DNA of 64,000 nucleotides from an uncultured Myxococcales bacterium. GTDB lineage: Bacteria > Myxococcota_A > UBA9160 > UBA4427. This document shows, one piece after another, positions 28,354 through 47,549 of this stretch. The stretch lies in NCBI GenBank assembly GCA_965603475.1, contig CBFDDD010000013.1, positions 2,687-66,686 on the forward strand. Direction: 5' to 3'. The notes beneath the pieces were generated by a model. The model had not been told where the DNA came from. It did no database searches and saw only the letters and a list, made by a program, of their open reading frames with translations. The position numbers were made by a program, and so were the translations under genes. Each line of letters opens with the position of its first letter. The first letter of the stretch is position 1.

Positions 28354-29247
28354 CTAGTCCTCGAGCAGGGCGACTCGCTGCTCGAGATCCTCCAGGGATG
28401 CGATGTGATCCACTCCGCCTGGAAGTTTGATCGCGCTCGCGCCAGATCCACCGAGCCAGAGATGAATCGGGCCCGCCAACCCTTCGCGGAGGGCGAGAAT
28501 CGTACGCGTTGCCTGTGAAGTCGGGATCGTGACAAGACTCAGGCCTAGTGCCACTGCGCGGGTTTCCTCAACGGCACTCAGTAGATCGTCGACGGGCACC
28601 TCGCTTCCCAGATAAAGGGGGTTTGCTCCCGCGCCGAGCGCGGTCAGAGCCGCAATCAACCCACCGAGCTCGTGGCGCTCTCCGGTTGGCGTCGCGAATA
28701 CGACACGAGGACCCAGGATTGAGCTGGAGGTTTGTTGAAGCGCCGATCCGAGCAATGATCGAAGAATGCCTGTCGCAAGATGTTCTGCTGCAATGCCCAT
28801 CTCTCCATTGGCCCAGCGCACGCCGATCTCGTGCACGAGCGGAATTGCGATCTCGCGCGCAAACCTCGATGGACCCAGAGTGGACAGTTGAAAGGAGAGA
28901 AGCCTCTGGGAAGTCGCATCATCGAGTCGGTCGAGTGCAGCCAGGATCTCGTCGAGCTGGCCGGCCGGACGGGCTTCACCGACCGCCGACCTGCTTTTTA
29001 GCTCTGAGACGTCCAGCTTTGCGACTTTTCCGATCCGGTGACCTGCATCGACCGCGGCCTTCACCAGACGAAGCCGTTCAAGGTCGGCTGCGCTGTATCG
29101 CCGCGTCCCACCCGCCGTTCGAAGAGGCACGACGACTTCATATCGTCGTTCCCAAGCACGCAGTAGCTCCGGCGAAAGGCCGGTCAGCCGCGCGGCGGTG
29201 CGAAGTGGGTAGGTCAGCTCGAGTGGATCGCCTTCTGCTTCTGACAT
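28354..29247 (-). CDS. carH: CarH/LitR-type light-responsive regulator (MerR HTH plus cobalamin-binding domain), paralog 1
   Basis: MerR HTH YPLRTAARLTGLSPELLRAWERRYEVVVPLRTAGGTRRYS. Wx9EH motif in RWANGEMGIAAEHLATG. Lower-axial His motif in ATPTGERHELGG. Confidence 0.85.
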   Translation of the reverse strand: MSEAEGDPLELTYPLRTAARLTGLSPELLRAWERRYEVVVPLRTAGGTRRYSAADLERLRLVKAAVDAGHRIGKVAKLDVSELKSRSAVGEARPAGQLDEILAALDRLDDATSQRLLSFQLSTLGPSRFAREIAIPLVHEIGVRWANGEMGIAAEHLATGILRSLLGSALQQTSSSILGPRVVFATPTGERHELGGLIAALTALGAGANPLYLGSEVPVDDLLSAVEETRAVALGLSLVTIPTSQATRTILALREGLAGPIHLWLGGSGASAIKLPGGVDHIASLEDLEQRVALLED

Positions 29248-29392
29248 GGCCGTATTCTATATCGAATCACAGATCTGTCCATATTCAATCTCCTCAATCG
29301 TCCCCCCTTCAATTTACAAAAAATACTGTAAACCATTGTTTTATAACAATAAAAATGCACGATGAGTTGACAATCTGATCTCCAAAAAAAAT

Positions 29393-29440
29393 ATTGTATA
29401 GATAATATCTTGACAGAAACTCAAATCGAGAGGATAGTCC
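29393..29440. promoter_or_regulatory. bidirectional promoter/operator module, copy 1 (carH1 <-> SRPBCC operon)
   Basis: Plus strand: ATTGTATAGATAATATCTTGACA-N17-GATAGTCC, giving -35 TTGACA at 29410-15 and -10 GATAGT at 29433-38, then SD GGAGGA at 29455-60. Minus strand: TTGAGT (29424-19)-N18-TATACA (29400-395) pointing at carH1. An imperfect 21-bp palindrome TGTATAGATAATATCTTGACA spans both promoters. Confidence 0.55.
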
Positions 29441-29465
29441 CGCCATTGCGGAACGGAGGAGTGAA

Positions 29466-30047
29466 ATGGCCAGATATGTAGACGCGATTGACCTGCCCAT
29501 CCCAATAGAGGAGGCATTCGACTATCTCGCTGATTTCAGCCGCACCGCTGAATGGGACCCAGGCGTCGAGGAGTCTCATCGTCTAACGAAGGGCAAGGTC
29601 CGTGTCGGCAGCCGGTTCAATGTGATCGTTTCGTTTTTCGGGCAGTCGATTCCGCTCGAGTACGAGATCACCGAATTCGATCGACCCTCGCGTTTGGTCC
29701 TGAGCGGAGGCGATTCCTCCGTGCGTTCAATCGACGAAATTACCTTCGTCGCAAGACCTGGCGGTACCCGCGTCACCTACGAGGCGAGAATCGATCTGGT
29801 CGGCATTCGCCGGATAGCAGATCCCCTGGTCGATATTCTGATGCAGCGAGTCGGTCGCCTCGCGGTGCGAGGTTTGCGAGAGCGACTGTCTGGGATTGGC
29901 CAAATGAACAATGAACCGGGAGCGCCTCCCGAGGATGCGATTACGTCGAGGGAAGGCAAGCGTCGATCTTCTACGCGAAGCGGAAAAAGCGCCAGAGCCG
30001 CAAAAAACTTCACTTCCAATCAACAAGAAAAAGGAGTTGCATCATGA
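29466..30047 (+). CDS. SRPBCC (polyketide cyclase/dehydrase-like) family protein
   Basis: MARYVDAIDLPIPIEEAFDYLADFSRTAEWDPGV... is typical of the family. Confidence 0.8.
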   Translation: MARYVDAIDLPIPIEEAFDYLADFSRTAEWDPGVEESHRLTKGKVRVGSRFNVIVSFFGQSIPLEYEITEFDRPSRLVLSGGDSSVRSIDEITFVARPGGTRVTYEARIDLVGIRRIADPLVDILMQRVGRLAVRGLRERLSGIGQMNNEPGAPPEDAITSREGKRRSSTRSGKSARAAKNFTSNQQEKGVAS

Positions 30048-30280
30048 ACGTAAGAGTCGAAGAACCACGTGCGAAGGAGCGCGCAATTGAGAGGCGAGAG
30101 GTGATTCCAGGCGTCAGCAAACCAAAGGCATTGTTCATTCTGGCGGCCGGACTCTCGTTCCTGATGTCAGTGTCGCTCTTCTTCACAGGAAGCCAGGAGC
30201 AAGGAATCTACGTCGGCATCTGGGTTCCCTCGATCTTGTCGGCCGGTGCATTGTTGCTTGGAGGGAACGGTCGTGAGTGA
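30044..30280 (+). CDS. small membrane protein (2 predicted TM)
   Basis: ATGA overlap with the SRPBCC stop. ...KALFILAAGLSFLMSVSLFF...IYVGIWVPSILSAGALLLGG. Confidence 0.55.
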   Translation: MNVRVEEPRAKERAIERREVIPGVSKPKALFILAAGLSFLMSVSLFFTGSQEQGIYVGIWVPSILSAGALLLGGNGRE

Positions 30281-30437
30281 AGTTGTCCTACTGTCCTTTG
30301 GATGCGCTGTGAGCTTCATCGTCGTTGCAGCTGTCTATATCTATGTAACCGAAGACTTCGCGGGAGCCGAGGGATACCGCAAGCAGGAGGCGAAAAGCGC
30401 AGACGGCGAAGTCAAGGATCTTTCAAAAATGGCATGA
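30273..30437 (+). CDS. small membrane protein (1 TM)
   Basis: GTG 30273 overlaps the previous stop (GTGAGTGA). VSEVVLLSFGCAVSFIVVAAVYIYV, then a charged tail. Confidence 0.45.
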   Translation: MSEVVLLSFGCAVSFIVVAAVYIYVTEDFAGAEGYRKQEAKSADGEVKDLSKMA

Positions 30438-30574
30438 TCACATTCGAGGTCTGCGAGCCGGCGCTGAATACCCTGGCGATTATCGCTGTGGGGTTTGGGG
30501 GGCGAGTGACCGCATCGCCGTATTGGACTGCATGCCAGCGCAAAATCGAGAAGAACTCTGACTGTCGCAGATGA
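30434..30574 (+). CDS. possible 46-aa micro-ORF
   Basis: ATGA overlap with the previous stop. MITFEVCEPALNTLAIIAVGFGGRVTASPYWTACQRKIEKNSDCRR. Support comes only from the coupling geometry. Confidence 0.3.
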   Translation: MITFEVCEPALNTLAIIAVGFGGRVTASPYWTACQRKIEKNSDCRR

Positions 30575-30586
30575 GAGAGCAATATA

Positions 30587-32110
30587 ATGAGAATTGCAAA
30601 CAAGCTTTCACGCATTGAACTCTCTGATTGGACGGGGCAGCAAGAACGCCTTGGAGCATTCTGGCGAGAGCGTCCGGTCGTACTCGTATTCATTCGCCAC
30701 TTTGGTTGACTTTTTTGCCGAGAGCAAGTCGCGCAGTTGCGCGACCGAATGAACGAAATACGCGCCCAAGGAGCAGAGATCGTCATCGTCGGGAACGGAG
30801 CCGAAAATTTTGCGGCGGCCTTCCGAGAGGATTTCGACCTCGATTGTCCGATTCTGGTGGATCCGGATCTCCGCGCGTATCGCGCGGCCGGTCTTCGAAG
30901 AGGCCGGGTTGAACTGCTCTCCCCGAGGCTTCCTCTGAATGCGCTGCGCGCTCTTCGTGCAGGTTCTCGCCAGACGGGCGTTCAGGGTGACCCCTGGCAG
31001 CTCGGCGGATTGTTCGTGATTAGGCCTGATGGCGAGCTGATGTATCGACATGTTAGCCGCGAGGCGGGAGATCATCCGCCTGTGGACGAAATTCTCGAGG
31101 CGCTCGAAGAAGGGGCAGAGCCAATCTCCGATATGTCTGGTTCTTCCGCGGGTCAAGTCTGGCTGGGACGCGCGCTCAGTCGAGTCGTTGATCCATTCAT
31201 CGTTTCCTCCTTCGACCGAACTGGATTCCGAATTCATAGCTTGACCTTTGGGGCCGACGACCTGGATGTCGATCTCTCGGGAAGACGGTGTCTCGTTACC
31301 GGCGCGAACTCAGGGATCGGGTACGAGACAGCGTTGGCGATGGCGGACCTCGGCGCTGAGGTCGTGCTTCTCTGTCGCAATGCCGAGCGAGGTACCGAGG
31401 CGGTAGAGCGTGTGCGCCAGCAAACAGGAAATTCGCGGGTATCGCTCGAGATCGTCGACATGTCGGACATGGAATCGATTCGAGCGGCGGCGGTTCGGCT
31501 GAATTCAGCACCGATCGATATATTGGTGCACAATGCGGGCGTTCTGCCGGATGAGCGCGTCGAGAGCCGTGATGGGTTGGAACTCACACTGGCCACGCAT
31601 GTGGTCGGGCCATTCCTGCTCACGCGCCTACTGCGCGAGAGCCTGGAAAAGTCCTCCGATGGTCGGGTGATCTGGGTTTCGTCGGGTGGAATGTACTCTC
31701 GCCGATTGAATCTGGAGGATCCGAACTGGAAGGGTCGCGATTACGATGGTGTTCTCGCCTACGCCGAGACCAAGCGCGCCCAGGTGATCCTTGCTGAGCT
31801 CTGGGCTGAAGAACTGCGGGGGGGGCCCGTCGTCGTGAACGCGATGCATCCCGGTTGGGCTGACACGCCCGCCGTACAGGACTCGCTGCCTCGGTTCCAT
31901 AAAGTGACTCGTCATATCCTGCGTACGCCGGCCGAGGGGGCAGATACCGTTGTTTGGCTTGCGGCGTCCGAACAGGGGCGACGATCGACCGGTCGATTCT
32001 TCTTCGATCGAAGGGAGCGGAGAACCCATCTGATTCCCATCACGAGGGAATCCCAGAAGGATCGTCGAGCACTCTGGGCGCTTTGTGAAAATCTAAGCTC
32101 AAAGAGTTAG
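30587..32110 (+). CDS. peroxiredoxin-like (AhpC/TSA_2, PRXL2/SelU-like) domain with UxxC, fused to an SDR domain; predicted selenoprotein
   Basis: The frame is open from ATG 30587 to the stop at 32108-10 except for TGA 30707-09: ...RPVVLVFIRHFG[U]LFCREQVAQLRD... This aligns with the in-window paralog LLVFLRHFGCIFCREIVGDLRK. SDR part: CLVTGANSGIG, HNAG, YAETK. The track ORF starts only at TTG 30737. Confidence 0.75.
30728..30745 (+). promoter_or_regulatory. SECIS-like hairpin downstream of UGA 30707
   Basis: GTCGCGCA-GT-TGCGCGAC has perfect arms. A realistic fold is a 7-bp stem with an AGUU loop. It starts 18 nt after the UGA and carries GU at the apex. Confidence 0.55.
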
Positions 32111-32186
32111 CCGGTGCCAAACGATTCGATTTCTCCGTCAGCTGTGCTCCGTAACGTGGGGAGAAATTGAGACTCAATCGTCCGGT

Positions 32187-32414
32187 TCAACTCCAGCCTG
32201 GTTTCCACTGAGTGTTGTCCGCGAGTTCACACGCTCCTACGAATTGCTCACGACCGGACAGGATGGCGCGAAGGCGGACCGAACGGTCTTCTTGGCCGGC
32301 GACAGAACGTTTCACAACAGCGATAACGATAAAGTGCTTGTCGCGCTCCTTTGGAAGAGTTGCCGTCCAACTCGAGCCGAGGAGCTTCTTCGGGTGAATG
32401 ACGTTCGAGGGCAA
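32187..32414 (-). CDS. TIGR02450-like Trp-rich small protein
   Basis: ..VIHPKKLLGSSWTATLPKERDKHFIVIAV...NTQWKPGWS matches the family pattern (NPKKLL.SKWTA...EKHF.V...W..GW). The only in-frame start is TTG 32414. Confidence 0.7.
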   Translation of the reverse strand: MPSNVIHPKKLLGSSWTATLPKERDKHFIVIAVVKRSVAGQEDRSVRLRAILSGREQFVGACELADNTQWKPGWS

Positions 32415-33012: not shown

Positions 33013-33648
33013 ATGTCCTCGGATTCAGTGGTGAAGGAGCGCCGTGCCGATGAGCCTGAACCCGCCGCGGCGGTTCAGGGTCACGAAGGCGGCCTTCACC
33101 CAGATTCCATCTCGCCCGAGACACTCGAAGCATCCGTCGTGGGGGTCGGGCTTTCACCGGGTTCGTTGCGAGACCAACTCGCGTCGGCCGAGACACTGCT
33201 GGTCTTCCTGCGCCACTTCGGCTGCATCTTCTGTCGTGAGATCGTAGGAGACCTTCGCAAGGCGACGACGGAGATCGACAATTTCCCGGACGTGCTCTTC
33301 TTCTTCCAGGGGACGCCGACGGAGGGCCGTGCATTCCTCCGGCGTGATTGGCCGGACGCACGCGCGGTGGCCGACCCGGAGCTCGAATTCTACGAGCGCT
33401 TCGGTGTTCACCGAGCGAGTTATTTCGAAGCGCTCGGCCCCGCGGTGTTCGCCGCCGGTCGCAGAGCGCGAAAGAAGGGATACGAAGGCGGACCGCGCTC
33501 CGGCGATATCTGGAGAATGCCCGGGATCTTCGCTGTGGAGCGAGAGCGTGTGATCTGGTCGCATCGTCCTCGCCATGCTGCGGACCATCCCGACTTTAGT
33601 GAGATCCCATCACTGATTCGCGCTGCACAGGGGTCCGGCGGGCAGTGA
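33013..33648 (+). CDS. peroxiredoxin-like protein (AhpC/TSA_2), Cys form with CxxC
   Basis: From ATG 33013: ...LLVFLRHFGCIFCREIVGDLRK...IWRMPGIFAVERERVIW. It is the Cys-containing paralog of the N-terminal domain of 30587..32110. Confidence 0.8.
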   Translation: MSSDSVVKERRADEPEPAAAVQGHEGGLHPDSISPETLEASVVGVGLSPGSLRDQLASAETLLVFLRHFGCIFCREIVGDLRKATTEIDNFPDVLFFFQGTPTEGRAFLRRDWPDARAVADPELEFYERFGVHRASYFEALGPAVFAAGRRARKKGYEGGPRSGDIWRMPGIFAVERERVIWSHRPRHAADHPDFSEIPSLIRAAQGSGGQ

Positions 33649-34036
33649 GTTTCAAGAGGTCTCTCCCATTCGGATTTCTCGGTCTGGCCACTTTCTGGAC
33701 ATTCCACGCGGTCGCCGACATCAACCTCCCCGATCGGTATGCGCTTGGTCCCGCCCCGCGTGATTTCGGCGATTGATCAACGAGCTGGAGCGGCAATTTT
33801 TCTCACGGAACTTTCGGCGTCCGATTCCCATTCTTGATGCGTCGCCTGGGAACGCTCTTTCGAAGCGGGTCGGCCACACCCACGCGCGCGGGGAATGACG
33901 GCGTTTATCTGCGCGAGAACGCCACGGAATCAGACTGGGGCGGATCCATATTGACCTCGCCAATGATTCCTGAATCAAACAATCGCTCGAACCCGAACCC
34001 CGACTATCACTTATGTCATGGCGGCGACCCTACAGG

Positions 34037-35844: not shown

Positions 35845-36378
35845 TTATCCTCGAGCCAGTGGATTTCTTGCTGGCATAGCTTCGTGAGGCGATACGGCGA
35901 GAGACCTCTCTTCGGCCGGCGAAGCCTGGGGCGTCAGCAACTCACGCACTCTGTTCTCCCGGTACTCGAAGATTCGATCTAGTCTCGAACGAATCAGGGG
36001 ATGTGCCATTCGGCCGAGCGGCTCGAATGGGAGCGCATAATGAACTTCGTCGCGGATGCGTGTCGACGCGTCACTGACAGATTCGAATCGATGCTCATGA
36101 ATCCACGTGTGAAAGGGACCTGAGATTTGTTCGTCGACGAATCGCCTTCCGGGCTCCCAGCAAGTTATTTCGGTCAACCAGGAGAAGGGGATTCCGAAGA
36201 GTCGGATGCGATACTCGATTCGTGTTCCGGCTTTCATCTCGATCGGCATAGCTGTCCGGATCTCGAAACGCAGCTCCGGTGGTGTGAGCGTCTCGAGGTT
36301 CGAAGCGTCGCAGAATAGGTCAAATGCATCCTCGAGCGAGCGCGCCAGCGTCATGTCCGTATAGAGAGCGTAGGTCAT
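35845..36378 (-). CDS. SRPBCC family protein
   Basis: ...FDLFCDASNLETLTPPELRFEI...GPFHTWIHEHRFE. ATGA overlap with the DCC gene stop. Confidence 0.8.
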   Translation of the reverse strand: MTYALYTDMTLARSLEDAFDLFCDASNLETLTPPELRFEIRTAMPIEMKAGTRIEYRIRLFGIPFSWLTEITCWEPGRRFVDEQISGPFHTWIHEHRFESVSDASTRIRDEVHYALPFEPLGRMAHPLIRSRLDRIFEYRENRVRELLTPQASPAEERSLAVSPHEAMPARNPLARG

Positions 36379-36815
36379 CGTGATTGATCAATCTCCTCGC
36401 TCTCGCAAGCAGGCTCGCCCGGGCCGATTTCACATCGTTTGGGCGCTCGGCCTGTGATTCGGAGACGGTATTTCGCAAAGACGAGATAGAGACGGTCGAG
36501 CAACCACCTAGCCCCGCGCCACTCTGACAGTGTGGAAATCCAAGTCACGCCCACGGCCGAGTAAGCGCGCGAGAATACCTCCACTCCTTCCACAACGGTC
36601 CCGTCGGGTAGGATTCCGTGGATCCGCGCTTCTACCATTGCCTGGTTGAGGCCGTACTTTTTTGGGTCGAATTCGACTGACGACAGATCTTCGAGTTCGA
36701 TTCTCCCTCGCCCGCGATCCATCCGCTCCAGAAATCGGGCCTCACGTGCACATAAGGGACACTCACCATCGACTAGTACGCGGATCTGCCAAGTCGGCTT
36801 TTCGATCGCGACCAT
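36375..36815 (-). CDS. DCC1-like thiol-disulfide oxidoreductase (DUF393)
   Basis: From ATG 36815: MVAIEKPTWQIRVLVDGECPLCAREARFLERMD, with the CxxC at the family position. It begins 1 nt after the sigma gene stop. Confidence 0.8.
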   Translation of the reverse strand: MVAIEKPTWQIRVLVDGECPLCAREARFLERMDRGRGRIELEDLSSVEFDPKKYGLNQAMVEARIHGILPDGTVVEGVEVFSRAYSAVGVTWISTLSEWRGARWLLDRLYLVFAKYRLRITGRAPKRCEIGPGEPACESEEIDQSR

Positions 36816-38119: not shown

Positions 38120-38167
38120 GGACTATCGTCGGCAAGTTGACATTTGTAAAGGTTTTATCTATACAAT
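38120..38167. promoter_or_regulatory. bidirectional promoter/operator module, copy 2 (sigma factor <-> carH2)
   Basis: Minus strand reads ATTGTATAGATAAAACCTTTACA-N17-GATAGTCC, with -35 at 38150-45 and -10 at 38127-22, pointing at the sigma gene. Plus strand reads TTGACA (38137-42)-N17-TATACA (38160-65), pointing at carH2. The architecture is block-for-block the same as 29393-29440. Confidence 0.55.
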
Positions 38168-38223
38168 GTTCTCCTAAATGAAAAATATTTAATCCCTATG
38201 GGGACATTCCGTCATTTTTTCTA

Positions 38224-39189
38224 TTGGCAGAGATGGTCTGGCGAATGAAACAGTTCGAGAAAGCAAGGGACACTTCGGGTTATCCGGTCCGAGTGGCCGC
38301 GAGAATGACCGGTCTGAAGCCCGAATTGCTTCGTGCCTGGGAGATTCGATACCGCGCGGTGATACCAAGCCGAACCCAGGGCGGGTCTCGACGCTACTCC
38401 GGGGAGGACCTCGATCGGCTGATGCTTCTCCGAGACATCGTGGAATCTGGCCGTCGAATCGGAAAAATCGCTCATCTGAGCGTTGATGAACTCCAAGTCC
38501 TCCTTGTCGAGTCGAGGAGCCAGTATCCCAATGCAATGGAGCTAATCATCGCAGTCCTTCAGAGGCTCGATGGATTCAAAGCGCGACGCTTGCTGACCGA
38601 CGAACTGACGAGGCTTGGTTCGCTTGAATTCGTAACGAACCTTGTCCTTCCGCTTCTGTTCGAGATCGGTCGGCGCTGGGAGCGCGGAGACCTCACTATC
38701 TCGGCCGAACATCTCGCGTCGGGCGTCCTTCGGTCCATATTGATGACTCTCGTCGACGCCGAAAACGAGAATCGAGGGTCACCAAAGATCGTTTTCGCAA
38801 CGCCAAGCGGAGAGCCTCATGATCTTGGAACGCTCGCAGCGTCGATCGTCGCGAATCGGGCCGGAACCGATTTGGTTTTTCTAGGAGCAGATGTCCCCGC
38901 CAAAGATCTCGTCGATTGCGTCGTCCGCTCAAATGCATCGGCCCTCGTACTGGGAGTCGTGACATTGCCGAAAGAGAGCGCTGAGCGAATTCTCCGAGAA
39001 GTCCGAAAGGAACTGCCTGAAAAGATCGGCGTTCTAATCGGAGGTGCCGGAATCCAGGGCCTTGCACCTATCAAAGGCATTGATCGAATAGACAACCTCG
39101 GTCAGCTCGAGGCGCAACTCACAAACTTGGCACTCGGCGGGATCGCCAGTCCAATGGCACGGGAACAGAGTGGCTCGAAATGGACGTGA
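38224..39189 (+). CDS. carH: CarH/LitR-type light-responsive regulator (MerR HTH plus cobalamin-binding domain), paralog 2
   Basis: YPVRVAARMTGLKPELLRAWEIRYRAVIPSRTQGGSRRYS. Wx9EH motif in RWERGDLTISAEHLASG. ExH motif in ATPSGEPHDLG. The start is ambiguous: TTG 38224, ATG 38233 or ATG 38245. Confidence 0.85.
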   Translation: MAEMVWRMKQFEKARDTSGYPVRVAARMTGLKPELLRAWEIRYRAVIPSRTQGGSRRYSGEDLDRLMLLRDIVESGRRIGKIAHLSVDELQVLLVESRSQYPNAMELIIAVLQRLDGFKARRLLTDELTRLGSLEFVTNLVLPLLFEIGRRWERGDLTISAEHLASGVLRSILMTLVDAENENRGSPKIVFATPSGEPHDLGTLAASIVANRAGTDLVFLGADVPAKDLVDCVVRSNASALVLGVVTLPKESAERILREVRKELPEKIGVLIGGAGIQGLAPIKGIDRIDNLGQLEAQLTNLALGGIASPMAREQSGSKWT

Positions 39190-40189: not shown

Positions 40190-41650
40190 ATGACACGCGG
40201 AATTCACTGGTTCCGAAACGACTTGCGACTTCACGACAATCTCGCATTGACGGCGCTTGCCGAGCGGAGCACGGCTTGGCTTCCGATATTCGTGATCGAC
40301 CCGGCCATGCTCGCGCGGTCAGGCCGGGATTCTCCTCGTGCCCGCTTTCTTTTCGACTGTCTCGCACGACTAGAGGGTGATTTGTTGGCGAAAGGGTTTG
40401 CGCTTCAGATTCTTGAAGGAAAGCCGGAGAGATTGATTCCTGAACTGATGGCTAAAACCGGTGCAACCCTGGTTTCGTGGAACAACGCGTCAACTCCATT
40501 GGGTCAGCGTCGAGACCTGAAGGTTGCCAATGCAATTTCTCGAGCCGGAGGGCAGGCCATCCAGCTCGACGATCACACGGTATTTGGCCCGGACGAGATC
40601 AAAACCAAGGATGGCGGTCACTATCGCGTTTACACGCCCTATCGAAATGAATGGTGGAAGACGTGGGAGAGAGAGCCCCGACCTTCTTCATCGACGGCAC
40701 GGTACCCAAAGGCTAACATCCCAAAAATCGCGATCTCCCGAGAACGACATTCGACGTTCTTTTCCGAGAACGGGAGCAAGATTCGCCTACCGAGAGGCGG
40801 AGAAGAGAGCGCAAAGCGCCGGCTCCGAAACTTCCTGTCTGGGCCGGCGAGTCGATATCATCTCGACCGAGACCGCCCAGATATCGATGGAACCTCGCGC
40901 CTATCTCCCTACCTCCGCTTCGGCGCGATATCGGCGAGGAGATGTTTTACAGAGGGCCTTCGAAAGATCGAGTCCGATCCGCGCGCACGGCCCGGAATCT
41001 CGAAGTGGCTCGACGAGCTGATCTGGCGTGAGTTCTACAATGCGGTGCTCATCAACAACCCCCATGTGCTCTCCGGGGCTTTCAAGCCGGAGTACGACGA
41101 GCTCAACTGGAAAGGGAGCGCGGCGCAATTTGCGGCCTGGTGTGAGGGGCGGACTGGCTATCCCTTCGTGGATGCTGGGATGAGGCAGCTGCGTTCCACG
41201 GGTTGGATGCACAATCGAGTGCGTATGGTCGTCGCAAGTTTTCTGACGAAGGATTTGCTCGTTGACTGGCGTCGTGGTGAACGCTTTTTCTTTGATTCGC
41301 TTGTCGATGGCGACCCCGCCTCGAACAACGGTGGATGGCAGTGGTCGGCATCGACCGGGACCGACGCCCAGCCCTATTTCAGGATCTTCAATCCGGTCGT
41401 TCAAGGGAAGAAATGGGACCCAGATGGAAAATACATCCGTCGATGGGTCCCTGAACTGCGGAAAGTAGATCCCAAGTGGATTCATGCGCCCTGGCAGGAG
41501 CCGAGCTCTCGCGTTCAATACATAAGGCCCATTGTCGATCATGGCGTACAGCGGCGATTGGCCTTGGATGAGTTCAAAAGGGTCCGGGCGATCGGTGGAG
41601 GACCGCGTTTGCTGGTCCCAGAAACAGGAGCGAAGTCAGCCAATGAGTAA
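40190..41650 (+). CDS. phrB: deoxyribodipyrimidine (CPD) photolyase
   Basis: MTRGIHWFRNDLRLHDNLAL...SRLSPYLRFGAIS...GYPFVDAGMRQL..TGWMHNRVRMVVASFL...GGWQWSASTGTDAQPYFRIFNP. Confidence 0.95.
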   Translation: MTRGIHWFRNDLRLHDNLALTALAERSTAWLPIFVIDPAMLARSGRDSPRARFLFDCLARLEGDLLAKGFALQILEGKPERLIPELMAKTGATLVSWNNASTPLGQRRDLKVANAISRAGGQAIQLDDHTVFGPDEIKTKDGGHYRVYTPYRNEWWKTWEREPRPSSSTARYPKANIPKIAISRERHSTFFSENGSKIRLPRGGEESAKRRLRNFLSGPASRYHLDRDRPDIDGTSRLSPYLRFGAISARRCFTEGLRKIESDPRARPGISKWLDELIWREFYNAVLINNPHVLSGAFKPEYDELNWKGSAAQFAAWCEGRTGYPFVDAGMRQLRSTGWMHNRVRMVVASFLTKDLLVDWRRGERFFFDSLVDGDPASNNGGWQWSASTGTDAQPYFRIFNPVVQGKKWDPDGKYIRRWVPELRKVDPKWIHAPWQEPSSRVQYIRPIVDHGVQRRLALDEFKRVRAIGGGPRLLVPETGAKSANE

Positions 41651-42647
41651 TCTATCCGTGCGAGATAGACCAATCTGGATGGAGTGGCATGATACAGCCA
41701 TGCCGATCCGAGTCGGAGTCTCGGCCTGTCTACTCGGGGGAGAAGTTCGTTTCGACGGAGGTCACAAGCGAGATCGCTACCTAACGGATGTGCTCGGCGA
41801 GAACGTGACTTGGCTCCCGGTCTGCCCGGAGATCGAAGTCGGTATGGGGATTCCAAGGCCAGTGATTCAGCTTAGGCAGGGTGAGATCGGAGAACGGCTC
41901 GTCGAGAGAGAATCGGGCGAGGACTGGACGGATCGGATGCAGAAGTACGCAGATGCGCGGACATCCGAGCTTTCCCGCATCGGTCTCGACGGTTTCGTCC
42001 TCAAAAAAGATTCGCCTTCCTGTGGGATGGCTCGGGTTCGCGTCTACGGAAGACCGGGAGCAATGCCGTCAAAAGGAGGCGTCGGTCATTTCGCGCAGGC
42101 GCTGAATCGCGGAATGGCAGATCTTCCCATCGAGGAAGAGGGAAGACTCCGTGACGCGGTTCTGCGCGAACGATTTATCGAGGCGGTGTTCAGCCACAAT
42201 CGGTGGCGAGTTCTCGTATCGAGAGGCTTGACGCGAGGTCGGTTGGTCGCTTTCCACGAAGCGCACAAGATGCTGATTCTCGCCCACGACCAGCATATCT
42301 ACCGCGAACTGGGTCGCCTCGTGGCGAGTTTTGGTCGTGTCCCGGACGAGGAAGTGTACCCGGCCTACCATGCGCTCTTCGTCGCTGCATTTCGGAAGCC
42401 CACAACGATCTCGCGACATGTCAACGTGCTCGAGCATCTCTTCGGACACGTCAAGAAGAAGATCAACAGCGCCGAGAAAAGAGAAATCTCCGCAGCGATC
42501 GAAGACTACCGGGACGCTCGAAGTCCTCTCGTCGTCGTGATCTCGCTCTTGCGATTTCTCGTTGCGGCCCACGACGTCAAGTATGTGCGAGGGCAGCTCT
42601 ATCTAGAGCCTCACCCTCGCGAGCTGATGCTGAGAAATCATGTCTGA
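41643..42647 (+). CDS. ybgA: DUF523 plus DUF1722 protein (YbgA-like)
   Basis: IRVGVSACLLGGEVRFDGGHK is the DUF523 part and the helical C-terminal half is DUF1722. The start is uncertain, at ATG 41643 or a downstream Met. Confidence 0.85.
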   Translation: MSNLSVRDRPIWMEWHDTAMPIRVGVSACLLGGEVRFDGGHKRDRYLTDVLGENVTWLPVCPEIEVGMGIPRPVIQLRQGEIGERLVERESGEDWTDRMQKYADARTSELSRIGLDGFVLKKDSPSCGMARVRVYGRPGAMPSKGGVGHFAQALNRGMADLPIEEEGRLRDAVLRERFIEAVFSHNRWRVLVSRGLTRGRLVAFHEAHKMLILAHDQHIYRELGRLVASFGRVPDEEVYPAYHALFVAAFRKPTTISRHVNVLEHLFGHVKKKINSAEKREISAAIEDYRDARSPLVVVISLLRFLVAAHDVKYVRGQLYLEPHPRELMLRNHV

Positions 42648-43803: not shown

Positions 43804-44030
43804 GGCTGGATGGTCGGCAGGTTCTGGCGGCGCTTCAAGACTTCGAGCCGCGACTTCCCTGGTGGATCTATGCGTTTACGCAAGCACGAATTCACTCTGC
43901 GGTCATGTCGGCCTATCGGAGATACCTGGCAACGGCGACTTAGCTGGTCGCAGTCAGGGTTTGGTGGTTTTCGAAATCGACGATCCTATGAAGCATCGCG
44001 AACGGAAACAAAAGGAAGGAGTATTCAAGT

Positions 44031-44480: not shown

Positions 44481-44584
44481 AAATGGTGATTTGGATATCC
44501 GCTTCGTGATAGTCGAGTTACGCGTCGACTTGAAACTTGGCATGGCAAAAAATGCAAAGACATTGAAGAACGAGGAGTCATAGA

Positions 44585-45154: not shown

Positions 45155-45774
45155 TGGGACACGAAATGCATAGAATTTTCGAATCAGACCGATCAAGACT
45201 ACGGTACGCAGCACTCGCGTTCGCCGTGATTCTGAGCCTGCCATTCCCAGCGAACACCGCCGAGATAGAAGGGGTGGAGTTTGCTGACGAAATCAAGTTC
45301 TCGAAACCAATCGATGGAACTCTTCGACTGCACGGAATGGGCTTGCTTCGCTATCGAGTTGTCTTCAAGGGTTATGTTGCGGCCCTCTATCTACCCGAAG
45401 GCCTATCTGGAGAAGACGCACTCGAAGATGTGAACCGTCGTCTCGAGCTCAGCTATTTCTGGTCGATCGGCGCCGAAGACTTTGCCCACGCTGCCGATCA
45501 GTTGCTCGAAAAGGAGCTGAGTGCCGCGCAGCTCGCACCTCTTCGGCTTCGCATCGACGCCCTCCACACTGCCTATCGCGATGTTCGACCAGACGACCGC
45601 TATTCGCTGACATATTTTCAAGGAGTGGGTACGGAACTTCGTCTCAACGGGGAATTGCTGGTGTTGATACCGGGAGCCGACTTTGCGAGAGCCTATTTTG
45701 GAATCTGGCTTGGGCGTAACGCTCTCGACACCGATCTGCGCGACGCCCTTCTTCGGCGTGACCGGCTCTCCTAG
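45154..45774 (+). CDS. chalcone isomerase-like family protein (secreted)
   Basis: Signal-like YAALAFAVILSLPFPANTA, then LRLHGMGLLRYRVVFKGYVAALYLP, which is typical of the Chalcone_3 family. TGATG overlap with the previous stop. Confidence 0.7.
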   Translation: MGHEMHRIFESDRSRLRYAALAFAVILSLPFPANTAEIEGVEFADEIKFSKPIDGTLRLHGMGLLRYRVVFKGYVAALYLPEGLSGEDALEDVNRRLELSYFWSIGAEDFAHAADQLLEKELSAAQLAPLRLRIDALHTAYRDVRPDDRYSLTYFQGVGTELRLNGELLVLIPGADFARAYFGIWLGRNALDTDLRDALLRRDRLS

Positions 45775-45776
45775 GC

Positions 45777-46832
45777 ATGGCCTTCGAACAAGACAGGTCG
45801 ACTGTTCTGGGCGAGACGCGAGCTGATATCTGGATGCGTCGCGCAATATCCGTACCTGCCGTCTATCTAGGGTTCTTCGTGGTGATCGCCACGGCCCCGT
45901 TCTGGATTGTAATTGCCCTTTGTGTCGATTTAGCGAATGCGTTTCGGACGACCACGGTACGGACCGGGCTATTTCTGGCTGTCTACCTGGGCTGCGAGGT
46001 CATCGGAGTCGCTGCGAGCTTGATTTTCTGGGTAATCAACGCGATTCACAGAACCTCCGCGGTGGAAGCCAAAAAATATTATCGCCGACACCTCATGCTG
46101 CAGCGTTGGTGGGCCGGAACCTTGCTGCGAGTTGCCATTCGGCTCTTTCGCCTGAAGATTCGAGCTGCGGGATGCGAAGTTCTCGATACTCCAATGATCT
46201 TGATGATCCGGCACGCGAGCATTGCGGATGCGTTGTTAGCGAACGAGTTCATTGGCGTTCCCCACGGTATTCATCTTCGTTATGTCATGAAGCGCGAGCT
46301 ACTGATCGATCCATGCCTTGATATTGTTGGTCACCGCCTGCCCAACTATTTTGTTGACCGAGATTCGGACGACCCGACAGGCAAACTCGCCGGAATGGTC
46401 AAGCTCCTTTCTGGTCTGCGGGAAGACGAGGGTGTGTTGATCTATCCCGAGGGCACGCGATTCACAGAAAAGAAACGTGAGCGGATTATCGAACGCCTTT
46501 CGGAGCAAGGGAAACTTGAAATGGCCGCCCGCGCCCGCGCGCTGCGACATACTCTGCCCCCGAGGCTCGGCGGATCACTTGCGTTGCTCGAGGCGAACCC
46601 GGGACTTGACGTGGTCTTCTGTGCACATACCGGATTCGAGGCTGCCGGTAAGCCCACGGACTTGTCCAATGGCTCGATGCTGGATCGCGAGATAGCCGTG
46701 CGGTTCTGGCGAGTACCTCTGGACGAGATTCCAATCGACGCATCTGCGCGCAGTGCCTGGCTTTTTGATCACTGGCAGAAGATCGACGACTGGATCGATG
46801 TGAACAGGGTTCGGGCCGGACGGAGTCGGTGA
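45777..46832 (+). CDS. PlsC-family lysophospholipid acyltransferase
   Basis: HX4D motif in MIRHASIADA and the YPEGTR block. N-terminal TM helices. Confidence 0.8.
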   Translation: MAFEQDRSTVLGETRADIWMRRAISVPAVYLGFFVVIATAPFWIVIALCVDLANAFRTTTVRTGLFLAVYLGCEVIGVAASLIFWVINAIHRTSAVEAKKYYRRHLMLQRWWAGTLLRVAIRLFRLKIRAAGCEVLDTPMILMIRHASIADALLANEFIGVPHGIHLRYVMKRELLIDPCLDIVGHRLPNYFVDRDSDDPTGKLAGMVKLLSGLREDEGVLIYPEGTRFTEKKRERIIERLSEQGKLEMAARARALRHTLPPRLGGSLALLEANPGLDVVFCAHTGFEAAGKPTDLSNGSMLDREIAVRFWRVPLDEIPIDASARSAWLFDHWQKIDDWIDVNRVRAGRSR

Positions 46833-46988
46833 CGATTCCTTCAGCGAATGGTATCTGTTTCCTGGTGGGGATAAGGTCGTCAAGCGCTGTGTCAATCTTT
46901 GCGTCTCGGGTTCGCCTGGGTCGTGGACGCTAAAATGGGAGCAAAGGCGACATTGCTGATTGCGGCCGCCGATGGGAGACCAAGAATT

Positions 46989-47549
46989 ATGCTGCAGCCC
47001 GATCTGCTCCGACGTTCCTTGCGCCTGGTCGGAGCGCTCCTTGCGAGTGGGCTGCTCTTCGCCTGTCAAACTCCCTATGAGCGGCGTGATCCGACCGGCG
47101 AAGTATTTCCTTCGGTCTCGGGGACATCGCTCAATGGCGAGGTGACGTCCTTGCCCCAGTCACTTGCGGGCGAGCCGGCACTCCTTCTGATCGGCTTCGA
47201 GCAGGACAGTCAATTCGATCTCGACCGCTGGGCGCTGGGTCTCTGGCAGAGTGGTTTTGCGTTGCCGGTCATAGAGGTTCCGACGATTCCCGGCATTGTG
47301 CCGCGCGTCATTTCGGATCGCATCGACAGCGGAATGCGAAGTGGAATTCCGATGGAAGATTGGGCGAGCGTCATTACGGTCTATCGTGATGCCGATGCCA
47401 TCGTGCGATTCACTGGCAACGAGAACCCACGTCCGGGCCGCGTTCTGCTTCTCAATGCAGCGAGTCAGGTTACGTATTTTCACGATCGGGGCTACTCGAC
47501 GGGAGCGCTGGCGCGACTCATCGAAGCAGTCGGGCAGCTCGGGAAATAG
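46989..47549 (+). CDS. hypothetical lipoprotein
   Basis: From ATG 46989: MLQPDLLRRSLRLVGALLASGLLFAC (lipobox). Confidence 0.6.
   Translation: MLQPDLLRRSLRLVGALLASGLLFACQTPYERRDPTGEVFPSVSGTSLNGEVTSLPQSLAGEPALLLIGFEQDSQFDLDRWALGLWQSGFALPVIEVPTIPGIVPRVISDRIDSGMRSGIPMEDWASVITVYRDADAIVRFTGNENPRPGRVLLLNAASQVTYFHDRGYSTGALARLIEAVGQLGK

What the first reader, a model, noticed from the sequence alone, without database searches (positions are those of the whole stretch)
28354..47549. About 19-kb candidate B12-gated light/UV/photo-oxidative stress island with two CarH paralogs, its own sigma factor and a selenoprotein effector
Two MerR plus B12-binding regulators (28354-29247 on the minus strand, 38224-39189 on the plus strand) both carry the Wx9EH motif (RWANGEMGIAAEH, RWERGDLTISAEH) and the ExH lower-axial His motif (GERHELG, GEPHDLG) described for AdoCbl photoreceptors of the CarH type. 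They bracket or lead several genes: a CPD photolyase, ybgA (DUF523/DUF1722), a renalase-like FAD oxidoreductase, NmrA-like and TIGR01777 NAD-binding proteins, DUF1295, two SRPBCC proteins, a DCC thiol oxidoreductase, two peroxiredoxin-like paralogs (one with U), ASCH, a TIGR02450 Trp-rich protein, a PPOX-like protein, a chalcone-isomerase-like protein, a PlsC acyltransferase and an RpoD-like sigma factor. Parts of this gene set recur next to photolyase in light-inducible MerR/LitR/PplR regulons and in singlet-oxygen regulons. The combination of two CarH paralogs, a full-length sigma-70-type factor and Sec chemistry, with no carotenoid genes, is unusual. My spot counts of a few 60-nt lines gave 52-60% GC inside the island against 62-67% in the men operon, which hints at a compositional difference. 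That needs proper computation.
Basis: partly seen in the sequence, partly recalled or inferred. Interest (0 to 1): 0.8.

Follow-up and report, generated by a model that had tools for sequence, protein, structure and literature searches.

The report
B12-light regulon with sigma and selenoprotein
This 19-kb stretch from an uncultured Myxococcota-like bacterium holds two conserved gene modules, each apparently switched on by light through a vitamin-B12 photoreceptor repressor, that together encode DNA, tRNA, cofactor and probably lipid damage-repair enzymes, a dedicated RpoD-like sigma factor and a selenocysteine enzyme that public databases annotate only as a truncated protein.

Summary
Both MerR+B12 regulators align over their full length with T. 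thermophilus CarH and keep the Wx9EH and ExHxxG motifs. The in-frame TGA at 30707 is a genuine Sec codon. It is conserved in four distant loci, aligns with Cys in the paralog, and is followed by a hairpin under synonymous-site constraint. The "island" is two conserved modules. Module A is carH1 divergent from SRPBCC, two small membrane ORFs and SelL(U)-SDR. Module B is sigma-DCC-SRPBCC-DUF1295-TIGR01777 divergent from carH2-renalase-photolyase-RudS-NmrA-PPOX-TM-CHI-like-PlsC-orf. Loci found through the Sec protein (3/3) or the sigma factor (5/5, down to 52% identity) all show the same pairings, and the pairing is lost at 44%. One 24-bp operator, TTTGTmAAG-N5-ATCTrTACAa, lies in 12 of 12 carH-adjacent intergenic regions and overlaps predicted divergent promoter elements. 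Its half-sites fit the CarH 11-bp repeat consensus but are inverted, not tandem. The GC deficit is real but small (57.4% versus 60-62%), and distant relatives do not show it, so foreign origin is not supported. Best reading: a CarH-type, light-derepressed photodamage-repair regulon. Light response, B12 binding and DNA binding remain inferred. It is a new variant of a known kind.

The parts
28354..29247 (-). carH1: MerR DNA-binding domain + four-helix bundle (Wx9EH) + Rossmann B12 domain (ExHxxG); regulator of module A
   Evidence: Pfam; full-length alignment to TtCarH 5C8D, E 6e-32; orthologs at 72-86% identity in L004, L006 and L007 with all motifs invariant
29394..29417 (-). Operator copy 1 (TCTGTCAAGATATTATCTATACAA). 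On the + strand its left half is the TTGACA -35 of the predicted SRPBCC1 promoter (29410-29438)
   Evidence: Exact 11-mer shared with IG2, found only twice in 64 kb; position-weight-matrix scan; conserved in L004, L006 and L007; promoter scan
29254..29281 (-). Predicted proximal carH1 promoter, TGGACA-16-TAGAAT, preceded by an ATCTGGACA half-site-like motif in relatives
   Evidence: conserved ATCTGGACA...TATAGA/TATAAA in L004, L006 and L007
29466..30047 (+). SRPBCC1 (Polyketide_cyc2), first gene of the module A effector operon
   Evidence: Pfam 6.5e-15; same position in L004-L007
30044..30437 (+). Two small overlapping membrane ORFs (30044-30280, 78 aa; 30273-30437, 54 aa)
   Evidence: ORFs of 78-79 and 53-54 aa at the same place in L004-L007; no family hit
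30587..32110 (+). Selenoprotein: SelL-related (Prx-like2) redox domain with a U41-x-x-C44 motif, fused to a classical SDR domain; 507 aa; UGA at 30707-30709
   Evidence: N-terminal domain scores 152.8 bits against the NF040769 cutoff of 120. TGA conserved in L004-L007. Top 120 homologs are all called N-terminally truncated
30728..30745 (+). SECIS-like hairpin GUCGCGC-AGUU-GCGCGAC, starting 21 nt after the U of UGA
   Evidence: Fold; conserved, with a U-A to U.G change in L004; covers the only run of 5 or more identical codons in the gene across 4 homologs
32187..32414 (-). DUF2389 / TIGR02450-type Trp-rich small protein
   Evidence: Pfam 5e-13; a DUF2389 gene also follows the module in L007
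32618..32947 (+). Possible ASCH-domain protein (marginal)
   Evidence: Pfam ASCH 17.3 bits, below the cutoff of 21.2; conserved in L003
33013..33648 (+). SelL-related redox protein, Cys form (CxxC); paralog of the Sec domain (34% identity)
   Evidence: NF040769, 145.8 bits, above cutoff; alignment puts U41 on its first Cys; present in L003, L004/5, L010 and L012
34037..34957 (-). TIGR01777 (YfcH-type) NAD-binding epimerase-like protein with DUF1731; last gene of the sigma operon
   Evidence: TIGR01777, 276.8 bits, above cutoff; same place in L003 and L008
34957..35835 (-). DUF1295 membrane protein (steroid-reductase / ICMT-like)
   Evidence: Pfam 4.9e-58; in L003, L008 and L009
35845..36378 (-). 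SRPBCC2 (Polyketide_cyc)
   Evidence: Pfam 1.9e-9; in L003, L008 and L009
36375..36815 (-). DCC1-like thiol-disulfide oxidoreductase (DGECPLC), abutting the sigma gene's stop codon
   Evidence: Pfam 2.6e-23; directly downstream of the sigma gene in window, L003 and L008-L012
36817..38079 (-). Primary-like (group 2-type) sigma-70 factor, 420 aa: region 1.2, a spacer of about 110 aa, and regions 2-4; no region 1.1
   Evidence: Pfam r2 + r4; gapless alignment to SigA/RpoD regions 2-4 and to region 1.2; below every NCBIfam equivalog cutoff; P0121 is the window's own protein
38143..38166 (+). Operator copy 2 (TTTGTAAAGGTTTTATCTATACAA). The left half is the -35 (TTTACA) of the predicted sigma promoter on the minus strand; the right half holds the -10 (TATACA/TACAAT) of the carH2 promoter
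   Evidence: conserved in L001, L003 and L008-L012
38224..39189 (+). carH2: second CarH-type regulator (44% identical to carH1); first gene of the long + strand operon. The true start is probably the ATG at 38233
   Evidence: Pfam; TtCarH alignment, E 1e-28; orthologs in L001-L003 and L008-L012
39200..40171 (+). Renalase-type FAD oxidase
   Evidence: PDB 4ZCC renalase, E 2e-68; present in L002/3, L007 and L010-L012; absent in L001, L004, L008 and L009
40190..41650 (+). Class I CPD photolyase
   Evidence: Pfam 3.6e-86 and 2.1e-40; PDB 1QNF/1OWL/1DNP, E 1e-103 to 6e-100
41643..42647 (+). RudS/YbgA: TudS-type [4Fe-4S] desulfidase + DUF1722 (tRNA 4-thiouridine de-modification)
   Evidence: Pfam; TudS 6Z92; function from PMC11417400
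42640..43803 (+). NmrA-like / NAD_binding_10 protein
   Evidence: Pfam; conserved in L004, L006, L008 and L009
44031..44480 (+). PPOX-class (PNPOx_N-like) small protein, weak
   Evidence: Pfam 23 bits, below cutoff; 149-150 aa ortholog in L004, L008 and L009
44585..45154 (+). Conserved membrane protein of 189 aa, no family
   Evidence: 188-190 aa ortholog in L004, L008 and L009
45130..45774 (+). Chalcone-isomerase-like (Chalcone_3) protein
   Evidence: Pfam 2.1e-34; in L004 and L008
45777..46832 (+). PlsC-type acyltransferase
   Evidence: Pfam 5.8e-10; in L004, L008 and L009
46899..47549 (+). Conserved last gene of the operon, no family (probably about 186-204 aa)
   Evidence: 187-194 aa ortholog in L004 and L008

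Best explanation
The region is a light-derepressed photodamage-repair regulon made of two conserved modules, each controlled by its own class I (AdoCbl-type) CarH/LitR repressor acting on one shared operator.

Inferred mechanism. In the dark, AdoCbl-loaded CarH1 and CarH2 oligomers sit on the 24-bp operator TTTGTmAAG-N5-ATCTrTACAa. In module B the operator covers the -35 of the sigma-operon promoter and the -10 of the carH2-operon promoter. In module A it covers the -35 of the SRPBCC1 / SelL(U)-SDR operon promoter. UV, blue or green light photolyses the Co-C bond, the oligomers fall apart, and all three transcription units are derepressed.

Outputs:
1. CPD photolyase (DNA repair).
2. RudS (removal of photosensitive s4U from tRNA).
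3. Renalase (re-oxidation of damaged NAD(P)H isomers).
4. Thiol and selenol redox proteins: the selenoprotein SelL(U)-SDR, the Cys paralog, and DCC.
5. Lipid-binding and lipid-modifying proteins: two SRPBCC proteins, DUF1295, a CHI-like protein, PlsC, and TIGR01777/NmrA-type reductases. I take these to repair or remodel photo-oxidised membrane lipids.
6. A primary-like sigma factor that probably extends the response to promoters elsewhere in the genome.

Shown here: domain architecture and motifs, the Sec codon with a SECIS-like element, conserved synteny, and the conserved operator overlapping promoter-like hexamers. Inferred: cobalamin binding, photolysis, repression, the biochemical roles of most effectors, and any sigma regulon.
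For: - Regulators. Full-length alignment to TtCarH with Wx9EH and ExHxxG in register. These residues are invariant in 10 orthologs from two ortholog groups, whose recognition-helix regions are nearly identical.
- Operator. An exact 11-mer is shared only by the two carH intergenic regions of the window. TTGTAWAG occurs 3 times in 64 kb, always there. The operator is present in 12 of 12 independent carH-adjacent intergenic regions, always in the same orientation relative to carH, with non-conserved flanks. The half-site ATCTrTACA occurs 11 times in 260 kb, each time in such a region. Each half fits the published CarH repeat nAnnTnnACAn (PMC8156234). The operator overlaps sigma-70-like hexamers.
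- Synteny from unbiased sampling. Loci found through the Sec protein show carH1 divergent from SRPBCC, two small ORFs and SelL(U)-SDR in 3/3 independent cases. Loci found through the sigma factor show sigma-DCC divergent from CarH-(renalase)-photolyase-RudS in 5/5 cases at 83-52% identity. The pairing is lost at 44%.
- Cargo is coherent with photodamage. Class I CPD photolyase. RudS, which has been reported in LitR/photolyase operons (PMC11417400). Renalase. KatG and a second photolyase inside module A of L006.
- Precedents. CarA and CarH paralogs share one operator in M. xanthus, and LitR controls the ECF sigma LitS in Streptomyces (PMC8156234, PMC11519972).
Against: - There are no expression, binding or photochemistry data; everything regulatory is inferred from sequence.
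- Both proteins score far below the NCBIfam CarH equivalog cutoff (133 and 122 bits against 400).
- The operator is an inverted pair of half-sites, whereas all characterised CarH operators are tandem direct repeats (PMC9304148). The oligomeric state or binding mode may therefore differ.
- No B12 uptake or synthesis gene, and no cobalamin riboswitch, is in the window.
- The -35 upstream of carH2 is not conserved in more distant loci, so the promoter assignments are tentative.
- No target promoter of the sigma factor was identified.
- The lipid-repair role of about half the cargo rests only on family names.
Confidence: 0.72

Rival explanations
1. The two regulators sense cobalamin availability, not light. 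They would be B12-dependent repressors whose regulon responds to cofactor status, and the photolyase association would be incidental.
For: B12-binding domains also act as plain cofactor or ligand sensors in other proteins, and the PDB matches include non-photoreceptor cobalamin-binding proteins (8J2W, 8JBS). No experiment here shows photolysis.
Against: Wx9EH, which caps the upper-axial adenosyl group and is specific to the CarH-type photoreceptor as opposed to B12 enzymes, is invariant in all 10 orthologs. None of the conserved cargo uses or makes B12. Instead it includes a light-driven enzyme (photolyase) and a tRNA-s4U desulfidase. No B12 metabolism genes are linked in any of the 10 loci.
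Confidence: 0.08
2. Only one paralog is a photoreceptor. The other acts like M. xanthus CarA, a light-independent repressor relieved by another signal, or acts only in hetero-oligomers, so that the two modules answer to different inputs.
For: Precedent: CarA and CarH share an operator but differ in B12 dependence (PMC8156234). The two groups are only 40-46% identical. Module A (redox and selenoprotein cargo) and module B (photolyase, RudS, sigma) carry different cargo, and each occurs without the other nearby in some genomes (L007, L008, L009).
Against: Both groups keep every photoreceptor motif residue invariant (W, E, H, and E-x-H-x-x-G). Published CarA keeps a B12 motif yet does not need B12, so motifs alone cannot settle this. 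In L006, module A itself carries a photolyase, which argues that CarH1 is also a light switch.
Confidence: 0.15
3. The 19 kb is a horizontally acquired genomic island of foreign composition.
For: GC is 57.4% against 62.4% and 60.1% in the flanks. Gene GC and GC3 are lower (p = 9e-6 and 8e-4). The closest relatives L008 and L007 show the same 3-point deficit. The order of the modules differs between genomes.
Against: There is no integrase, transposase, tRNA or flanking repeat. The deficit is only 3-5 points. In L004, L006 and L009-L012 the modules have the GC of their hosts, across a range of 61-72%, which indicates long residence and vertical descent within the clade. Parts of the neighbourhood recur as well: DUF3604 near module A in L004/5, and a 584-aa TPR protein near module B in L009.
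Confidence: 0.08
4. The TGA at 30707 is a true stop, giving a 40-aa peptide plus a separate SDR protein, or the gene is a pseudogene. There would then be no selenoprotein.
For: All public gene calls treat it that way: a 40-aa ORF plus a protein of about 459 aa. No Sec machinery (selA, selB, selC, selD) and no tRNA-Sec is in the window.
Against: - The TGA is conserved at the identical codon in 4 independent loci at 77-85% protein identity, and the amino-acid sequence is conserved on both sides of it.
- It aligns with the first Cys of the CxxC motif in the paralog.
- Read through, the reconstituted N-terminal domain passes the curated SelL-related cutoff.
- A hairpin 21 nt downstream is the only run of 5 or more invariant codons in the 507-codon gene.
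- Without the first 40 residues and U41, the redox domain has no active site.
Confidence: 0.03

Closest known systems
CarH of Thermus thermophilus / Myxococcus xanthus / Bacillus megaterium (class I LitR; AdoCbl photoreceptor-repressor)
   Same: Same three-part architecture, with a full-length alignment to the solved structure. Wx9EH and ExHxxG are conserved. The operator half-sites fit nAnnTnnACAn, and the operator overlaps sigma-70-type promoter elements. As with CarA/CarH in M. xanthus, two paralogs share one operator.
   Different: - The cargo has no carotenoid genes (not found in the window, nor in the gene calls of any related locus).
- The operator is an inverted pair 12 bp centre to centre, not 3-4 tandem repeats.
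- Both paralogs keep the photoreceptor motifs.
- Each paralog heads its own module.
- Scores are below the NCBIfam equivalog cutoff.
LitR-LitS of Streptomyces (AdoB12 LitR plus partner ECF sigma factor)
   Same: A B12-type LitR is genetically coupled to a dedicated sigma factor that relays the light signal (PMC11519972).
   Different: Here the sigma is a 420-aa primary-like factor with regions 1.2, 2, 3 and 4, not an ECF sigma. It is transcribed divergently from carH and is always followed by a DCC thiol oxidoreductase. Its target promoters are unknown.
Pseudomonas PplR/PmlR (class II LitR) light regulons
   Same: A MerR-type LitR controls an operon with the PhrB photolyase, RudS/YbgA, an SDR, an FAD oxidoreductase and proteins of unknown function (PMC9758184, PMC11417400).
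   Different: Class II LitRs lack the B12 Rossmann domain and depend on LOV proteins. Those regulons include furan fatty-acid and folate genes that are not seen here, and they have no sigma factor and no selenoprotein.
SelL / Prx-like2 (PRXL2, AhpC-TSA_2) redox proteins and listed bacterial Prx-like selenoproteins
   Same: The N-terminal domain passes NCBIfam 'SelL-related redox protein'. It has a UxxC redox motif like the Prx-like UxxC/UxxU selenoproteins listed in the 2026 review (PMC13188914).
   Different: It is fused to a classical SDR domain (RDH/DHRS12-like). It sits in an operon next to a B12-photoreceptor gene in bacteria whose related loci also carry photolyase and, in L006, KatG. 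No such fusion is in the review's tables, and public records call it a truncated SDR.

Membership tests
CarH / class I LitR (AdoCbl photoreceptor repressors) | N-terminal MerR-type winged-helix DNA-binding domain | tested here: met
   PF13411, E 1.3e-14 and 4.7e-10; aligned to the TtCarH DNA-binding domain
CarH / class I LitR (AdoCbl photoreceptor repressors) | Four-helix bundle carrying W-x9-E-H, which caps the 5'-deoxyadenosyl group | tested here: met
   In register with TtCarH W131/E141/H142; invariant in 10 orthologs
CarH / class I LitR (AdoCbl photoreceptor repressors) | Rossmann B12 domain with E/D-x-H-x-x-G (lower axial His) | tested here: met
   GERHELG and GEPHDLG aligned to TtCarH GERHEIG; E, H and G invariant
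CarH / class I LitR (AdoCbl photoreceptor repressors) | Operator made of tandem 11-bp direct repeats nAnnTnnACAn overlapping the promoter | tested here: inconclusive
   Two half-sites fit the consensus in 9/10 and 9/10 copies and overlap promoter-like hexamers, but they are inverted, not tandem. The literature stresses operator plasticity
CarH / class I LitR (AdoCbl photoreceptor repressors) | Score above the NCBIfam equivalog NF052513 (TransRegCarH) cutoff | tested here: not met
   132.8 and 121.6 bits against a cutoff of 400. It is the best-scoring model for both proteins. This is an equivalog-level threshold, not a definition of the family
CarH / class I LitR (AdoCbl photoreceptor repressors) | AdoCbl binding, dark oligomerisation, and light-induced release from DNA | not testable with these tools
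   Needs purified protein, UV-visible spectroscopy, SEC and EMSA
Bacterial selenoprotein | In-frame UGA conserved among orthologs and aligned with Cys in homologs | tested here: met
   all top homologs are truncated at this codon
Bacterial selenoprotein | SECIS stem-loop just downstream of UGA, with G/U in the apical loop | tested here: met
   A 7-bp stem with an AGUU loop at 30728-30745. Its fold energy alone is not exceptional (z = -0.94). It is the only run of 5 or more invariant codons in the gene, and L004 has a U-A to U.G change. The spacing and loop rules are from my own knowledge of bacterial SECIS models
Bacterial selenoprotein | selA, selB, selC and selD present in the genome | not testable with these tools
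   None in the 64-kb window; the rest of the genome is not available
SelL-related redox protein (NCBIfam NF040769) | Score above the curated cutoff | tested here: met
   152.8 bits (Sec domain, with U read as C) and 145.8 bits (Cys paralog) against a cutoff of 120
Group 1/2 (primary-like) sigma-70 factors | Regions 1.2, 2.1-2.4, 3 and 4 alignable with RpoD/SigA, including the RGYKFSTYA..WWI..Q box and the region 4.2 RERxRQIE motif | tested here: met
   Gapless 229-residue alignment to SigA regions 2-4, plus region 1.2
Group 1/2 (primary-like) sigma-70 factors | Membership of a named equivalog (RpoD, RpoS, RpoH, cyanobacterial group 2, MzaA) | tested here: not met
   All scores are below the cutoffs (for example TIGR02997 230 against 384; MzaA 235 against 800). 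There is no region 1.1, so it is not the housekeeping sigma
RudS (TudS + DUF1722 tRNA s4U desulfidase) | Fusion of a DUF523/TudS domain and DUF1722 | tested here: met
   PF04463 1e-36 + PF08349 2.3e-35; TudS 6Z92; family function from PMC11417400
Class I CPD photolyase | Photolyase N-terminal domain + FAD_binding_7, with class I CPD enzymes as closest relatives | tested here: met
   1QNF/1OWL and 1DNP at E 1e-103 to 6e-100, ahead of cryptochromes and (6-4) photolyases. Below the NCBIfam equivalog cutoffs
Genomic island (horizontally acquired) | Mobility genes, a tRNA or repeat boundary, and clearly foreign composition | tested here: not met
   None found. The GC deficit is only 3-5 points, and distant relatives do not share it

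The most novel reading that the evidence does not exclude
In a clade of uncultured Myxococcota, B12 photoreceptors gate a two-tier circuit that has not been described.

First tier: CarH directly derepresses repair genes.

Second tier: CarH also derepresses a dedicated primary-like sigma factor. The invariably co-transcribed DCC (DxxCxxC) protein would control this sigma's activity as a thiol-switch partner. The wider regulon would then fire only under light AND oxidation.

A second CarH paralog would bring a selenium-dependent bifunctional enzyme (SelL-type selenol peroxidase/reductase fused to an RDH-like SDR) under light control, to detoxify lipid hydroperoxides and aldehydes. That would be a rare selenoprotein dedicated to aerobic photo-oxidative stress.
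Probability: 0.15. Interest if true: 0.75.

Novelty: new variant of a known kind. Interest (0 to 1): 0.52.

Why it matters
- CarH/LitR photoreceptors are best known for switching on carotenoid genes, and they are widely used as optogenetic parts. This cluster shows a conserved, carotenoid-free output in a poorly studied lineage: repair of DNA, tRNA, NAD(P)H and probably lipids.
- It offers a compact 24-bp inverted operator shared by two paralogs, which could reveal a new CarH DNA-binding geometry.
- It links a B12 photoreceptor to a primary-like sigma factor, where the documented precedent is an ECF sigma.
- It exposes a widespread selenoprotein family (at least 120 sequence clusters) that automated annotation truncates. 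The family is linked to photolyase and KatG genes, while the 2026 review states that aerobic bacteria rarely retain selenoproteins.
- All of this is directly testable with two purified proteins, one oligonucleotide and a reporter.

Tried and rejected
- Exact-protein look-ups of the window's own CarH2, photolyase and sigma factor found no record, so sample provenance could not be obtained.
- The reference-genome scan with CarH2 gave only one short contig and the metagenome scan gave two. Synteny therefore had to be built from homologs of the Sec protein and the sigma factor.
- Rfam found nothing in the window at gathering thresholds, and nothing in the island at E up to 1: no cobalamin riboswitch and no curated SECIS.
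- No tRNA or tRNA-Sec is in the window.
- A position-weight-matrix scan for further operator copies inside the island found none beyond the two intergenic regions and one weak site at 29321-29351. I rejected the idea that every gene has its own CarH site; the cargo is organised in three long transcription units.
- I tried reading the operator as tandem direct repeats. In the window a third consensus match (38133-38143) sits in 11-bp register upstream, but it is not conserved in other loci, so I rejected that reading.
- The MFE z-score of the SECIS hairpin alone was unremarkable (-0.94). I replaced it with the synonymous-site test.
- Foreign-island hypothesis: rejected.
- MzaA (anti-phage sigma) was the top NCBIfam hit for the sigma factor but lies far below its cutoff, and only its C-terminal part aligns. 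Rejected.
- The toxin-antitoxin hit for SRPBCC1 (Rv0910 family, 42 bits against a cutoff of 100) was rejected as generic SRPBCC similarity.
- Two J. Bacteriol. papers on class II and class III LitR could not be read.
- I did not use the third protein-database search, the representative-library search or structure prediction. No open question here depended on them.

Full report
**1. What is in the sequence**

The two regulators, 28354-29247(-) and 38224-39189(+), have MerR_1, B12-binding_2 and B12-binding domains. They align from the DNA-binding domain to the end of the Rossmann domain with T. thermophilus CarH (5C8D/3WHP; E 6e-32 and 1e-28). The quoted motifs fall on TtCarH's W-x9-E-H and E-x-H-x-x-G. 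The two proteins are about 44% identical to each other.

The other assignments:
- The photolyase is closest to class I CPD enzymes.
- The FAD protein is a clear renalase homolog (4ZCC, E 2e-68).
- YbgA is a TudS + DUF1722 fusion. This family was shown in 2024 to be RudS, a tRNA 4-thiouridine desulfidase often found in LitR/photolyase operons (PMC11417400).
- ASCH and PPOX-like are marginal.
- The TIGR02450-type protein (DUF2389) is on the minus strand at 32187-32414.

The flanks are ordinary chromosome: a men operon, citrate synthase, fatty-acid enzymes and a DUF3604 protein. No carotenoid, integrase, Sec-machinery or B12 gene turned up among the ORFs scanned, and there is no tRNA.

**2. The selenoprotein is real**

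- The gene runs from 30587 to 32110 with TGA at 30707-30709, giving FIRHFG-U-LFCRE.
- Read through, the N-terminal 175 residues pass the curated cutoff for 'SelL-related redox protein' (152.8 bits against 120), and the rest is a classical SDR.
- U41 aligns with the first Cys of the CxxC motif in the paralog at 33013-33648 (34% identity).
- In a search of 5.8 billion proteins, the 120 best hits (74-94% identity) all cover only about 90% of the query and are about 459 aa long. Several begin at MFCREQ, the codon right after the UGA.
- I checked the DNA of four loci. Each has the same in-frame TGA, with conserved coding sequence on both sides.
- A hairpin, GUCGCGC-AGUU-GCGCGAC, starts 21 nt after the UGA. 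Its folding energy alone is unremarkable.
- Among four homologs, only 23% of amino-acid-identical columns share the same codon. The single run of five or more identical codons in the whole 507-codon gene is EQVAQLR, which is exactly the hairpin. That is the signature of an RNA-level constraint, so I read it as a bacterial SECIS.
- A 2026 review of prokaryotic selenoproteomes lists Prx-like UxxC/UxxU and Prx-like2 UxxS proteins but no SDR fusion. It also states that aerobes rarely keep selenoproteins (PMC13188914).

**3. Two conserved modules, not one island**

The lineage is poorly sampled. A reference-genome scan found one 3.6-kb contig from a 'Deltaproteobacteria' MAG, and metagenomes gave two short contigs at 90-95% identity that keep the gene order. 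I therefore sampled context through other proteins.

Loci found only through the Sec protein (L004/L005, L006, L007) all show a CarH1-type regulator divergent from SRPBCC, ORFs of 78 and 54 aa, and SelL(U)-SDR. The extras vary: lipocalin, the Cys paralog, KatG, photolyase, renalase, DUF2389.

Loci found only through the sigma factor at 83, 62, 56, 54 and 52% identity (L008-L012) all show sigma-DCC(-SRPBCC-DUF1295-TIGR01777) divergent from a CarH-type regulator followed by (renalase)-photolyase-RudS, and in the closer ones by NmrA-PPOX-TM-CHI-like-PlsC-orf. At 44% identity the pairing is gone.

In L004/5 the module B operon runs straight into module A. In L008 and L009 module B sits alone among unrelated genes. 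Source names for the homologs are Myxococcota, Deltaproteobacteria or Proteobacteria MAGs.

**4. A shared operator**

- The 11-mer ATCTATACAAT occurs exactly twice in the window, once in each carH-adjacent intergenic region.
- TTGTAWAG occurs three times in the window, all in those regions.
- Aligning the intergenic regions of all loci, oriented on carH, reveals TTTGTmAAG-awwww-ATCTrTACAa in 12 of 12 independent regions, with unconserved flanks.
- The half-site ATCTrTACA occurs 11 times in 260 kb of window plus loci, never outside these regions.
- The right half fits the published CarH repeat nAnnTnnACAn and the left half fits its reverse complement (9/10 each). The site is therefore an inverted pair 12 bp centre to centre. 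Characterised CarH proteins use three or four tandem repeats (PMC8156234, PMC9304148).
- In module B the left half is the -35 (TTTACA) of a predicted minus-strand promoter for the sigma operon, and the right half contains the -10 (TATACA/TACAAT) of the carH2 promoter.
- In module A the left half is the TTGACA -35 of the SRPBCC1 promoter.
- No further copies occur inside the island, which agrees with three long transcription units.
- The recognition-helix region is nearly identical in CarH1-type and CarH2-type proteins, and W, E, H and E-x-H-x-x-G are invariant in all ten.

**5. The sigma factor**

It is 420 aa (P0121 is the window's own product). It has region 1.2, a spacer of about 110 residues, and regions 2-4 that align without gaps to SigA/RpoD, including the RGYKFSTYA..WWI box and SRERVRQIE in region 4.2. 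It lacks region 1.1 and reaches no equivalog cutoff.

It is therefore a primary-like alternative sigma, not an ECF factor such as CarQ or LitS. Those two are the documented sigma factors in light-induced carotenogenesis circuits, and LitS is the documented partner of a LitR (PMC8156234, PMC11519972). A DCC1-like DxxCxxC protein follows it directly in all seven loci.

**6. Composition**

The island is 57.4% GC against 62.4% and 60.1% in the flanks. Gene GC3 is 0.63 against 0.68 (p = 8e-4). The closest relatives share a deficit of about 3 points, but in L004, L006 and L009-L012 the modules match hosts that range from 61 to 72% GC. With no mobility genes, this does not support recent horizontal acquisition.

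**7. Interpretation**

The best-supported reading (confidence about 0.7) is a CarH-type, light-derepressed photodamage-repair regulon. The architecture, motifs, Sec codon, synteny and operator are shown here. Cobalamin binding, photolysis, repression, the sigma regulon and the lipid-repair role of much of the cargo are inferred.

Rivals I considered:
- B12 sensing without light.
- One paralog acting like the light-independent CarA.
- A foreign genomic island.
- The TGA as a true stop.

Each is weighed in its own section.

**8. Novelty and score**

The kind is known: LitR/CarH regulons with photolyase and RudS, LitR with a partner sigma factor, and paralogous CarH-type repressors on one operator. 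Within what I could search, the following appear to be new:
- the carotenoid-free conserved cargo;
- two motif-intact class I paralogs, each heading a module;
- the inverted operator;
- the primary-like sigma paired with DCC;
- the mis-annotated SelL(U)-SDR selenoprotein family.

I rate it a new variant of a known kind, with interest of about 0.5.

Noticed in passing
window 33640-33960: About 310 bp between the convergent ends of the SelL-Cys gene and the TIGR01777 gene is absent from the roughly 93%-identical metagenome contig L003. It is single copy in all the sequence I hold, has no terminal repeats and no ORF with a family match.
   Followed up: partly
window 38194-38203 (and the matching place in L001, L002, L003, L008, L009, L010): A conserved palindrome, CCCTwwGGGG, lies in the carH2 leader, downstream of the operator and upstream of the start codon. 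It could be an RNA hairpin over the ribosome-binding site or the site of a second regulator.
   Followed up: no
window 30587-32110; proteins P0001-P0120: Public gene calls truncate this selenoprotein family. At least 120 sequence clusters are annotated as SDR oxidoreductases of 442-478 aa, some starting at the codon right after the UGA. A separate 40-aa ORF is called upstream in some loci.
   Followed up: yes
window 36375-36815 and 36817-38079; L003, L008-L012: The DCC1-like DxxCxxC protein always lies directly downstream of the CarH-linked sigma factor, in an arrangement like that of sigma/anti-sigma pairs. A thiol-switch partnership is an untested idea.
   Followed up: partly
window 30044-30280 and 30273-30437: Two small overlapping membrane ORFs (78 and 54 aa) lie between SRPBCC1 and the Sec gene. 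Their size and order are conserved in L004-L007, and they match no family.
   Followed up: partly
window 29309-29351: An AT-rich stretch with inverted TTTACA/TGTAAA motifs lies between the main operator and the predicted carH1 promoter. Similar motifs occur at the same place in L004, L006 and L007. These may be auxiliary CarH half-sites.
   Followed up: partly
L006 7559-9826 and 12288-13697 (GCA_029261875.1): In this relative the module A operon also carries a catalase-peroxidase (KatG), its own photolyase and an NmrA-DUF2867 protein. This ties the CarH1 module to oxidative and UV stress as well.
   Followed up: no
L013 1742-3025 (GCA_031394605.1): The sigma homolog at 44% identity has no divergent CarH and no DCC. 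A MerR protein without a B12 domain lies 2.5 kb downstream. This marks the edge of the CarH-linked sigma subfamily.
   Followed up: partly
window 53358-56178: An MCRA-family fatty-acid hydratase and a fatty-acid desaturase are adjacent, about 6 kb beyond the island. I found no operator copy there.
   Followed up: no
window 25795-28029; L004/L005 from 21077 to the locus end at 21365 (gene continues beyond): A DUF3604 protein flanks module A in the window and lies about 8 kb from it in L004/5. The 584-aa TPR protein that flanks the island on the right has an equally sized TPR protein near module B in L009. Parts of the wider neighbourhood are therefore conserved.
   Followed up: no
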